The notes under the pieces were generated by a model. That model ran no database searches, was not told the origin of the DNA, and worked only from the letters and a program-made list of their open reading frames with translations. The position numbers and the translations under genes were made by a program. A DNA stretch of 64,000 bases from the human T2T-CHM13v2.0 reference genome, Homo sapiens. Of this stretch, positions 34,247-35,689 are shown one piece after another (the first letter of the stretch is position 1; each line of letters starts with the position of its first letter). Where the stretch lies: the NCBI RefSeq assembly GCF_009914755.1, contig NC_060929.1, one strand, 5' to 3'.

Positions 34247-34608
34247 TGATATGGTTTGGATCTGTGTCCCCACTCAAGTCTCCTGTTCAACTGTAATCCT
34301 CAGTGTTGGAGGTGGGGCTTGGTGGGAGGTGACTGGATCATGGGGGTGGTTTTAATGGTTTAACACCATCCTCTGGGTGCTGTTCTCATGACAGTGACTG
34401 AGTTCTCGTGCGATCTGGCTGTTTAAAAATGTGTAGCACTTCACCCTTCGCTGTCTCTCTCTCCTGCTCTGCCATGTGAAGATGTGCCTGCTTCCCCTTC
34501 ACCATCCACCATGATTGTAAGTTTCCTGAGGCCTCCCCAGAAGCAGAAGCCACTATGCTTCCCGTACAGACTGTGAAAACGCGAGCCAATTAAACCCTCT
34601 TTTCTTTA
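34247..34608 (+). mobile_element. MSTA-type MaLR LTR, 5' portion
   Basis: 'tgatatggtttggatctgtgtcccc'...'gagccaattaaaccctcttttcttta'. Confidence 0.9.
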
Positions 34609-34906
34609 GGTTGGGTGTGGTGGCTCATGCCTGTAATCCTAGCACTTTGGGAGGCCGAGGCAGATGGATTGCCTGAGCTCAGGAGTTCGAAACCAGCCTG
34701 GGCAATACGGTGAAACCCCGTCTCTAGTAAAAATACAAAAAATTAGTTGGGCATGGTGGTGTGAGCCTGTGGTCCCAGCTACTCGGGAGGCTGAAGCAGG
34801 AGAATCGCTTGAAACCGGGAGGCGGAGGTTGCAGTGAGTGGAGATCATAGCACCGTACTCCAGCCTGGGAGACAGGTGAGACTTTGTCTCAAAAAAAAAA
34901 AAAAAA
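34609..34906 (+). mobile_element. AluS (probably chimeric; left inversion breakpoint)
   Basis: Full dimer with A16 tail; no same-orientation TSD after the tail. Confidence 0.9.
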
Positions 34907-35232
34907 TGGATTTTTAAAATGCAGAATAGTAACTGTTTACATAGCATTTACATCATATTAGGCATTATAAGTAATCTAGAGATGACTTAAAGCATATGGA
35001 GGATGTGTATTGGTTATATGCAAATACTACACATTTTACCAGGAATTCAAGGCTGCAGTGAGCTAGGATCACACCACTGCTCTCCAGTCTGGGCCACAAA
35101 GAACCTCAAATAAAATAAGATAAATAAAATAAATAAACAAGCATTTTATATCAAGGACTTGAGCAGTCCAGATTTGGGTATCTGCAGGGGGGTCCTGGAG
35201 CCAATCCCCCATGGATATTAAGGCACAACGCT
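34907..35232 (-). mobile_element. MER2 5' two-thirds (flipped), containing an AluJ 3' fragment at about 35039-35140
   Basis: 'tttacatagcatttaca..aagtaatctagagatgacttaaag..ggttatatgcaaatactac', 'ggacttgagca..ggtcctggagccaatccccc'. Confidence 0.85.
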
Positions 35233-35299
35233 ATACGGATATGGAAACATTAAGTCATACATCTAAAATAGATGCAGTTTTCCAGCCTGGGTTACATAG

Positions 35300-35370
35300 T
35301 ATATTAGTCTGTTCTCGCATTGCTATAAAGAACTACCGAAGGCTGAGTAATTTATAAAGAAAAGAGGTTT
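35300..35370 (-). mobile_element. MSTA LTR 3' end (flipped)
   Basis: 'tattagtctgttctcgcattgctataaagaactacc..gagtaatttataaagaaaagaggttt' is the reverse complement of the end missing from 34247-34608. Confidence 0.88.
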
Positions 35371-35604
35371 GTTTTTATTTTTTTGGAGACAGAGTCTCGC
35401 TCTGTTGCCCAGGCTGGAGTGCAGTGGTGTGATCTCGGCTCACTGCAACCGCCGCCTCCTGGGTTCAAACAATTCTCCTGCCTCAGCCTCCCGAGTAGCT
35501 GGGACCACAGGCTCACGCCGCCAAGGATGTTAGCCAGAATGGTCTCCATCTCCTGACCTCATGATCCGCCCGCCTCGGCCTCCCAAAGTGCTGGGAATAC
35601 AGGC
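35371..35604 (-). mobile_element. Alu lacking its central linker (probably chimeric; right inversion breakpoint)
   Basis: Right arm joined at 'ggctcacgccgccaagga|tgttagccagaatgg' to an AluY/Sc-type left arm. Confidence 0.88.
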
Positions 35605-35689
35605 TTGTTTGTATTTTTTTCTGAATTTTTTTTGATCTGTGTTTAGCTGAATCCACAGATGCAGAGCTGCAGGTTCAGAGGGCTGACTG
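35605..35689 (+). mobile_element. MER2 3' end
   Basis: 'ctgaatttttttt..gatctgtgtttagctgaatccacagatgcagag..agagggctgactg'. Confidence 0.8.

What the first reader, a model, noticed from the sequence alone, without database searches (positions are those of the whole stretch)
34592..35689. Cryptic ~0.46-kb inversion between two inverted Alus, shown by four broken repeats and an inverted TSD
Seen in sequence: (1) The MSTA LTR runs on + at 34247-34608, but its missing 3' end lies on - at 35300-35370. (2) The left Alu's target site AAACC(C)TCTTTTCTTTA (34592-34608) reappears only as its reverse complement TAAAGAAAAGAGGTTT (35355-35370), next to the tail of the other Alu. (3) MER2 is on - at 34907-35232, but its 3' end is on + at 35605-35689. 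(4) The host AluJ continues flipped at 35281-35299. (5) An L1MA end is - / flipped / - across 34010-34045, 35233-35280 and 35690-35740. Reverse-complementing 34907-35370 makes all of these colinear. Established: recombination between inverted Alus produces inversions with two chimeric Alus. Inference: this happened here and may be lineage-specific or polymorphic.
Basis: partly seen in the sequence, partly recalled or inferred. Interest (0 to 1): 0.8.

Follow-up and report, generated by a model that had tools for sequence, protein, structure and literature searches.

The report
Small inversion between two inverted Alus
A 464-base piece of a COL23A1 intron sits backwards between two oppositely oriented Alu repeats, a known and probably harmless kind of rearrangement whose age and exact break points are still open.

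Summary
Window 34907-35370 (464 bp) is reversed relative to its flanks. Pieces of an LTR, a MER2-like transposon, an old L1-like element and an old Alu map colinearly to intact copies elsewhere in the genome, but on opposite strands. The left Alu's 16-nt target-site duplication reappears only as a reverse complement, next to the right Alu.

The flipped piece is exactly the loop of the hairpin that the two Alus and their A/T-rich tails can form. The two Alus also share a 45-nt near-identical tract. It carries a 19-mer found only 70 times in the genome, so they have exchanged sequence.

The claim of "two chimeric Alus" is not shown. The right Alu is flanked by its own 16-nt A-rich direct repeat (15/16). 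If that repeat is real, the breaks lie at the inner edges of the repeat arms, not inside the Alu bodies. The composition tests are undecided.

Age, lineage specificity and polymorphism could not be tested because no primate or other human haplotypes were available. The locus is intronic with no annotated element. It is a new member of a known kind, of modest interest.

The parts
33985..34045 (.). Old L1-like element, piece A. It is on the same strand as piece C.
   Evidence: Matches 29 related copies up to window 34045.
34046..34246 (-). Older Alu, main part. It is interrupted by the LTR.
   Evidence: Alu matches (D1, D4, I2); read.
34247..34608 (+). MaLR-type LTR, first 362 nt. Its last 16-17 nt (34592-34608) are copy 1 of the left Alu's TSD.
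   Evidence: 81-82% identical over its full length to 7 of 7 intact copies.
34609..34906 (+). Left Alu, full length, with a pure A16 tail at 34891-34906.
   Evidence: Its 5' flank has no match after its own tail, but a 16-nt match after the right Alu's body.
34761..34805 (+). Tract shared with the right Alu (44 of 45 identical). It contains the rare 19-mer at 34761-34779.
34907..35370 (.). The inverted segment (464 bp). It equals the loop of the Alu-Alu hairpin.
   Evidence: The long stem ends at 34906/34907 paired with 35367/35368.
34907..35232 (-). MER2-like transposon, 5' part. It is interrupted at 35039-35141 by a short Alu 3' fragment on +.
35233..35280 (.). Old L1-like element, piece B. 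It is on the opposite strand to pieces A and C.
   Evidence: 35/48 identity to the majority line when reverse-complemented, against 26/45 forward; L044.
35281..35299 (+). Continuation of the older Alu, flipped.
   Evidence: Read; pairs I8 and I10.
35300..35370 (-). LTR 3' end, flipped. Its last 16 nt (35355-35370) are copy 2 of the left Alu's TSD, reverse-complemented.
   Evidence: (I12).
35369..35384 (-). 16-nt T-rich stretch with two possible readings: the left Alu's former A-tail, or the right Alu's own TSD copy. It overlaps the left Alu's TSD by 2 nt.
   Evidence: 15/16 match to 35605-35620 (D8, 38, 42, 43).
35385..35604 (-). Right Alu body. It is 5' truncated by about 11-22 nt (consensus positions 1-11 are missing in the alignment; more if the Alu ends at 35604). 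It has a 42-column internal gap relative to the left Alu, with the junction near 35526/35527.
35472..35516 (-). The right Alu's copy of the shared tract. The rare 19-mer is at 35498-35516.
35605..35689 (+). MER2-like transposon, 3' end. Its first 16 nt (35605-35620) are the second copy of the candidate right-Alu TSD.
35690..35790 (.). Old L1-like element, piece C.
   Evidence: weaker support (L023, L025, L044, L046).

Best explanation
Two Alus were inserted tail-to-tail, in opposite orientation, into a stack of older repeats in a COL23A1 intron. The left Alu went into an LTR and the right Alu into a MER2-like transposon. Together with their A/T-rich tails they form a roughly 300-nt imperfect inverted repeat. 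The 464-bp spacer between them was later turned round by an interaction of this repeat pair, leaving all sequence in place.

Shown: the inversion, the position of the Alus at both boundaries, the displaced TSD copy, and sequence exchange between the two Alus.

Inferred: that the Alu pair caused the flip.

Open: where the strands were exchanged. In reading (a) the crossover was inside the Alu bodies, the classical retrotransposon recombination-mediated inversion. The 16 nt at 35369-35384 would then be the left Alu's old tail and both Alus would be chimeras. In reading (b) the breaks or a microhomology exchange were at the inner edges of the arms, at the base of the hairpin loop. Both Alus would then be whole, the 16 nt would be the right Alu's own TSD, and the junction would have a 2-nt overlap. 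I rate (a) and (b) about equal.

The event is most likely old, fixed and neutral.
For: - Colinear but opposite-strand mapping of four unrelated older repeats.
- The TSD test. The left Alu's 5' flank has no partner after its own tail, but a 16-nt partner with 1 mismatch after the right Alu's body. As calibration, repeats of k>=14 occur in 9 of 27 true local Alu flank pairs and 1 of 135 mismatched pairs.
- As single-stranded DNA, 34609-35607 folds into one long Alu-Alu stem (-250.5 kcal/mol; z = -21.3; 0 of 20 shuffles as good). The stem runs through A16 paired with 35368-35384 and stops at 34906/34907 paired with 35367/35368, so the flipped piece is the loop.
- Sequence exchange between the Alus. 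They are 182/220 (82.7%) identical overall but 44/45 in one tract. Only 8 of 1128 pairs of other local Alus have <=1 mismatch in those columns, and 0 of 48 carry the 12-mer with the three shared variants. The 19-mer occurs 70 times in the 3.1-Gb genome, these two included.
- The class is documented. Lee et al. found 28 Alu-mediated inversions between human and chimpanzee, mean size 769-1934 bp, with 12 of 49 retrotransposon recombination-mediated inversions (Alu and L1 together) carrying deletions (PMC2603318, Results). Another study found 9 polymorphic Alu-flanked inversions in 41 humans, median 685 bp, with only 1 of 9 Alu pairs above 90% identity (10.1101/2021.12.20.472354, passages).
- For reading (b): the right Alu's 5' flank matches the 16 nt after its body at 15/16. 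Of 82 unrelated Alu 3' ends, 0 reach 15/16 and 5 reach 14/16.
- For reading (a): the rare-variant count (next field), and a 42-column gap with 3 rare variants beside the shared tract in the right Alu, which looks like a repair scar.
Against: - There is no outgroup or second haplotype. The ancestral state is inferred only from broken repeats, and the causal role of the Alus is inferred from their position.
- Against (a): the right Alu would have had no detectable TSD, because its 5' flank has no partner after the left Alu's tail. The 15/16 repeat around it would also have to be chance (0 of 82). Counting all differences from the local majority, the left Alu has 20 in 145 and 14 in 120 positions and the right Alu 8 in 82 and 8 in 120. 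Each Alu therefore looks uniform (by my arithmetic about 4:1 for non-chimeric).
- Against (b): the right Alu would have no A-tail beyond its TSD. In 14 local Alus with a clear TSD the tail is 7-25 nt in 13, and the one value of 1 is a poly-A artefact. Counting only rare variants (shared by <=2 of 48), the left Alu has 4 in 145 and then 9 in 120, and the right Alu 3 in 82 and then 2 in 120. This fits a swap of the 3' halves slightly better (about 3:1 by my arithmetic).
- 6 of 27 ordinary local Alus show no TSD by the same test, so a missing TSD is weak evidence.
- The shared tract could come from a separate gene conversion, before or after the flip.
Confidence: 0.75

Rival explanations
1. Retrotransposition-coupled inversion. 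The right Alu was inserted in the same event that flipped the spacer. Reverse transcription was primed at a break in or beside the left Alu's A-tail or the T-rich MER2 site, and the ends were then rejoined with the 464-bp piece reversed.
For: - The right Alu sits exactly at one junction, with its poly(A) side against the displaced TSD of the left Alu.
- It is 5' truncated.
- Both boundaries lie in A/T runs, the kind of site the L1 endonuclease prefers (that preference is recalled).
- The MER2 pieces abut with no clear loss.
- Three L1-reporter insertions accompanied by inversion of genomic DNA at the insertion site have been reported (PMC11702581, passages).
Against: - It needs two extra breaks 464 bp apart in one event.
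- The shared tract between the two Alus then needs a separate later gene conversion.
- The endonuclease motifs at the boundaries are not canonical (read; the motif is recalled).
- I found no germ-line Alu example in print. Search one search returned 56 papers with all six terms; I saw only the 15 listed and passages of three.
Confidence: 0.1
2. A two-break, end-joined inversion unrelated to Alu pairing. One break fell at the end of the left Alu's tail and the other in the MER2-like element. A later, independent insertion of the right Alu then landed at the new junction.
For: - The right Alu has a matching 16-nt direct repeat in its present place.
- In 63 of 252 human-chimpanzee inversions an L1 or Alu spanned only one breakpoint, 22 of them an Alu (PMC2603318).
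Against: - The Alu's TSD would have to start within about 2 nt of an older junction by chance.
- The Alu would also have to lie in the inverted orientation, lack a tail, and later exchange sequence with the left Alu.
Confidence: 0.06
3. No inversion. The fragments are independent insertions of different copies of the same repeat families.
For: - The 3' LTR piece finds genome copies at 90-96% identity, whereas the 5' piece finds at best 82%. This could suggest different subfamilies.
Against: - Four unrelated elements break at the same two points and continue without gaps or extra overlap on the other strand.
- The only overlap is the 16-nt TSD.
- Against the same 7 copies the two LTR pieces are about equally diverged (79-88% and 81-82%). 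The higher best hits of the 73-nt piece are what a short query gives among thousands of copies (inference).
Confidence: 0.02
4. Assembly error that flipped the spacer between two inverted repeats.
For: - Inverted repeats can mislead assemblers (general knowledge).
Against: - The whole structure is about 1 kb, far shorter than the long reads used for a telomere-to-telomere assembly (general knowledge, not tested here).
- The two TSD copies and the two Alus have diverged as expected for an old event.
Confidence: 0.01

Closest known systems
Alu recombination-mediated inversion (RRMI / Alu-RMI; Lee et al. 2008, PMC2603318)
   Same: Two oppositely oriented Alus occupy both boundaries of a sub-kilobase to kilobase inversion. 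A TSD copy is displaced to the other element. One Alu carries a deletion, as in 12 of their 49 loci. The size is in their range.
   Different: Only one of the two Alus has mismatched TSDs here. Chimerism could not be shown because no pre-inversion Alus were available. The junctions may lie at the tails rather than inside the elements.
Polymorphic Alu-flanked balanced inversions in humans (Porubsky et al., preprint 10.1101/2021.12.20.472354)
   Same: Small size (their median is 685 bp). The flanking Alu pair has low identity: 82.7% here, and only 1 of their 9 pairs exceeds 90%. At least one flanking element is truncated in some of their cases. The authors suspect a process other than plain homologous recombination.
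   Different: Whether this locus is polymorphic is unknown. Their call set is in supplements that I could not open.
Inversions of target DNA accompanying L1-mediated insertions (Mendez-Dorantes et al., PMC11702581)
   Same: A retroelement lies at one junction of a small inversion, is 5' truncated, and the breaks lie in A/T runs.
   Different: Those are somatic events in a reporter system. Here a second, older Alu sits at the other junction, and the two Alus have exchanged sequence.
L1 twin priming
   Same: It produces sub-2-kb inverted sequence associated with retrotransposition.
   Different: Twin priming inverts part of the inserted L1 itself. Here the inverted piece is made of four older, unrelated host repeats.

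Membership tests
Alu recombination-mediated inversion (Lee et al. 2008) | Two Alus of opposite orientation span the two inversion boundaries. | tested here: met
   Left Alu 34609-34906 (+) and right Alu 35385-35604/7 (-). They pair as one long stem that ends at the boundaries.
Alu recombination-mediated inversion (Lee et al. 2008) | The sequence between them is inverted relative to the ancestral state. | tested here: met
   Inferred from four broken repeats that are colinear only after flipping. No outgroup was available.
Alu recombination-mediated inversion (Lee et al. 2008) | The TSDs of both boundary elements no longer match, because both are chimeras. | tested here: inconclusive
   Left Alu: met; its partner TSD lies beside the right Alu, inverted. 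Right Alu: a 15/16 A-rich direct repeat flanks it in place. This is either its own TSD (feature not met) or a chance likeness to an old A-tail.
Alu recombination-mediated inversion (Lee et al. 2008) | Each recombined Alu aligns as the front of one and the back of the other pre-recombination Alu. | not testable with these tools
   This needs the uninverted allele from another primate or haplotype. Internal composition tests were undecided.
Alu recombination-mediated inversion (Lee et al. 2008) | The uninverted orientation is present in outgroup species. | not testable with these tools
   Only the window's own assembly and prokaryote, virus and plasmid collections are held.
Retrotransposition-coupled target-site inversion | The retroelement is at one junction, with its poly(A) side at the primed end. 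| tested here: met
   The T-rich tail side of the right Alu abuts the flipped segment at 35370/35371.
Retrotransposition-coupled target-site inversion | The element is absent from the uninverted allele. | not testable with these tools
   No other allele or species was available.
L1 twin-priming inversion | The inverted sequence is the 5' part of one newly inserted L1. | tested here: not met
   The inverted 464 bp consists of MER2-like, L1-like, Alu and LTR pieces that continue in the flanks.

The most novel reading that the evidence does not exclude
The flip was not a homologous crossover inside the Alus. Both Alus are whole, each with its own TSD. The piece that turned is exactly the loop of the Alu-Alu hairpin. 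It was cut at the base of the stem, at the A16 tail on one side and the A-rich TSD of the right Alu on the other, and rejoined with a 2-nt overlap. This would be a worked example of the 'different rearrangement process' suspected for low-identity Alu-flanked inversions in humans.
Probability: 0.35. Interest if true: 0.45.

Novelty: new member of a known kind. Interest (0 to 1): 0.3.

Why it matters
Small inversions flanked by diverged Alus are a recognised but poorly understood class of human and ape structural variation. A locus where nested older repeats and both TSDs fix the boundaries to within 2-3 nt can show whether such flips arise by crossover inside the Alus or by breakage at the base of the Alu hairpin.

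For this gene nothing suggests an effect. The segment is intronic, and the supplied annotation lists no exon or functional element between 34 and 36 kb. The two Alus remain inverted relative to each other whichever way the spacer lies. If the event proved human-specific or polymorphic, it would add one marker to existing catalogues.

Tried and rejected
- A 161-nt L1-like query found only itself in the genome. I replaced it with a 31-nt pattern search allowing 3 mismatches.
- BLAST of the short L1-like pieces against 29 copies gave mostly non-significant hits. Only the alignment-based placement was usable.
- Chimerism of the Alus. Counts of all differences, counts of rare variants, and CpG retention read by eye gave no consistent answer.
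- Subfamily labels (the right Alu's left arm resembles younger Alus; both right arms resemble the S type) rest on recall and did not discriminate, because a natural subfamily with that combination exists (recalled).
- A paralogue that might keep the uninverted state. Only the locus itself covers 35142-35370; 39 other hits cover single repeat pieces.
- Literature on this locus. The search 'COL23A1' plus 'inversion' gave 27 papers. None of the 12 listed concerns it, judged from titles and abstract starts only.
- PMC12350158, passages: nothing on Alu-flanked inversions.
These include Table S1 of PMC2603318, which lists the 49 loci, and the inversion call set of the Porubsky preprint. I therefore cannot say whether this locus is already catalogued.
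- RepeatMasker on native and re-inverted sequence was not run, because no repeat library is held. No re-inverted sequence was built; mapping the pieces to intact copies answers the same question.

Full report
**What is there.** The window is chr5:178,870,001-178,934,000 of T2T-CHM13, inside the COL23A1 span with no exon in the window (hub annotation). From the sequence and the repeat scan, the region 33985-35790 reads as follows:
- an old L1-like piece (to 34045);
- an older Alu on the minus strand (34046-34246);
- an LTR on the plus strand (34247-34608);
- a full-length Alu on plus with a pure A16 tail (34609-34906);
- then 464 bp (34907-35370) that carry, in this order: a MER2-like transposon on minus, with a short Alu fragment inside it; 48 nt of L1-like sequence; 19 nt of Alu on plus; and 71 nt of LTR 3' end on minus;
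- then a T-rich 14-16 nt stretch;
- a second Alu on minus (to 35604/35607);
- the MER2-like 3' end on plus (35605-35689);
- and L1-like sequence again.

No repeat library was available.

**Check of the observation.** I did not build a re-inverted sequence. Instead I fetched intact relatives of each broken repeat from the same genome and asked where the pieces fall on them.

- *LTR.* 40 copies were scored and 7 fetched with flanks. In 7 of 7, window 34247-34608 and 35296/35310-35370 cover one continuous stretch on opposite strands. They overlap by 15-19 nt, which is the 16-nt duplication. Both pieces are similarly diverged from these copies: 81-82% for the 5' piece and 79-88% for the 3' piece.
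- *MER2-like element.* 11 copies were fetched. The reverse complements of 35142-35235 and 34907-35038 are followed by 35605-35689 on the same strand of L011 and L018. The internal T-rich part of this family varies between copies, so I cannot say whether up to about 25 nt are missing at the join.
- *L1-like element.* A 161-nt query found only itself, so I used a 31-nt pattern with up to 3 mismatches. It gave 162 places, of which 29 were fetched besides the window's own. On their alignment, piece A, the reverse complement of piece B, and piece C follow one another. Piece B matches the majority line at 35 of 48 columns when flipped and 26 of 45 when not.
- *Inverted TSD.* It is 16 nt and 94% complementary (I12). 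The 16-mer with up to 2 mismatches occurs 3 times in the window against 0.09 expected.
- *Older Alu.* Its continuation at 35281-35299 is read directly.

**The inverted repeat.** Folded as single-stranded DNA, 34609-35607 forms one long stem between the two Alus (-250.5 kcal/mol; z = -21.3; 0 of 20 shuffles as good). Parsing the structure shows that the stem runs through the A16 tail, paired with 35368-35384. It ends at 34906/34907 paired with 35367/35368. The flipped piece is therefore exactly the spacer, or loop, of the repeat. Any exchange within the arms would look like this, so this result alone does not place the exchange point.

**The two Alus have exchanged sequence.** Overall they are 182/220 (82.7%) identical, which is ordinary; the median for 1128 pairs of 48 other local Alus is 81.6%. 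In one 45-nt tract, however, they are 44/45 identical. The left arms are 62/80 and the right arms 70/85. The evidence that this tract is unusual is as follows:
- Only 8 of 1128 control pairs have <=1 mismatch in those columns.
- 0 of 48 other Alus carry the 12-mer with the three shared variants.
- The 19-mer containing them occurs 70 times in the whole genome, these two included, among more than 1.2 million Alus (abstract start of PMC2041999 in the listing).

In the right Alu the tract is adjoined by a 42-column gap and three rare substitutions. This looks like a repair scar. Whether this exchange belongs to the inversion event or was a separate gene conversion cannot be told.

**Where were the strands exchanged?** I applied the TSD test that Lee et al. 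use (PMC2603318, Methods section 19). It was calibrated on 27 local full-length Alus. Direct repeats of k>=12 occur in 14 of 27 true flank pairs and 1 of 135 mismatched pairs. Six of the 27 show none.

- The left Alu's 5' flank has no partner after its own tail, but a 16-nt partner after the right Alu's body. This is as expected for an inversion.
- The right Alu's 5' flank has no partner after the left Alu's tail. It does have a 16-nt, 15/16 partner directly after its own body (35369-35384 against 35605-35620).
- This repeat is A-rich, so I compared the flank with 82 unrelated Alu 3' ends. 5 reach 14/16 and 0 reach 15/16 (0 of 32 in the smaller set).

If the repeat is the right Alu's TSD, both Alus are whole. 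The junctions then lie at the inner edges of the arms, with a 2-nt overlap between the two TSDs at 35369-35370. Against this, the right Alu would have no A-tail beyond its TSD. In 14 local Alus with a clear TSD the tail is 7-25 nt in 13.

If instead the 16 nt are the left Alu's old tail, the event is a classical crossover inside the Alus. The right Alu then lacks a detectable TSD, and the 15/16 match is chance.

Composition does not decide:
- All differences from the local majority are 20 in 145 and 14 in 120 positions for the left Alu, and 8 in 82 and 8 in 120 for the right Alu. Each Alu looks uniform.
- Rare variants only are 4 in 145 and 9 in 120 for the left Alu, and 3 in 82 and 2 in 120 for the right Alu. 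This fits a swap slightly better. By my hand arithmetic the likelihood ratios are about 4 and about 3, in opposite directions.

I therefore commit to an Alu-pair-mediated flip of the spacer (0.75) and leave the two sub-readings about equal.

**Rivals.**
- *A flip coupled to the insertion of the right Alu.* This would explain its position at a junction, its 5' truncation and the A/T-run boundaries. Insertion-associated inversions of target DNA have been seen in an L1 reporter system (PMC11702581, passages). But it needs several breaks at once and a later gene conversion (0.1).
- *An unrelated end-joined inversion followed by a chance Alu insertion at the junction.* This is unlikely (0.06).
- *Independent insertions* (0.02) and *assembly error* (0.01) are nearly excluded.

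**Comparison with what is known.**
- Lee et al. 2008 (abstract, Results part 1, section 19) describe 252 human-chimpanzee inversions. Of these, 49 are recombination-mediated and 28 of those lie between Alus. Mean sizes are 769-1934 bp, 12 of the 49 carry deletions, and the breakpoints have no hotspot along the element.
- The Porubsky et al. preprint (passages) reports 9 Alu-flanked polymorphic inversions with a median of 685 bp. Only 1 of the 9 pairs exceeds 90% identity, and the authors suggest a different process for them.

The present locus fits this class in size, arrangement and Alu divergence. I file it as a new member of a known kind.

**Age and consequence.** One difference in the 45-nt tract is compatible with anything from recent to tens of millions of years (inference). 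No paralogue keeps the older state. No primate genome or second human haplotype is held, so 'lineage-specific or polymorphic' remains untested. The supplied annotation lists no exon, enhancer or RNA gene between 34 and 36 kb. The Alus stay inverted relative to each other in either state, so I expect no functional effect (inference).

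Noticed in passing
window 35039-35141: A heavily 5'-truncated Alu 3' fragment lies inside the MER2-like element. It has about 60 nt of body plus an (AAATAAAAT)n-type tail; TRF reports 35108-35137 with period 14. It is flanked by a 7-nt duplication of MER2 sequence. 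Because it lies in the flipped segment, it is older than the inversion or of unknown order.
   Followed up: partly
window 35517-35530: The right Alu has a 42-column internal gap that removes the A-rich linker. Three substitutions, each seen in at most 2 of 48 other Alus, sit immediately beside the gap and next to the tract shared with the left Alu.
   Followed up: partly
window 34240-34250 and 35295-35302: The LTR is inserted into the older Alu with a 5-6 nt duplication (ACAT(A)G in the Alu's sense). The MER2-like element is flanked by TA on both sides within the L1-like element. The order of insertions can therefore be read from the nesting.
   Followed up: partly
window 33868-33885, 36030-36053, 36346-36371: Short G-rich direct repeats (families D5, D7 and D10) suggest further copies of an L1 3'-end-like sequence on both sides of the region. 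They were not examined.
   Followed up: no
window 35298-35370 against the genome: The 73-nt LTR 3' end finds other copies at 90-96% identity, while the 362-nt 5' part finds at best 82%. I attribute this to the short query and a conserved LTR end, but did not test it.
   Followed up: no
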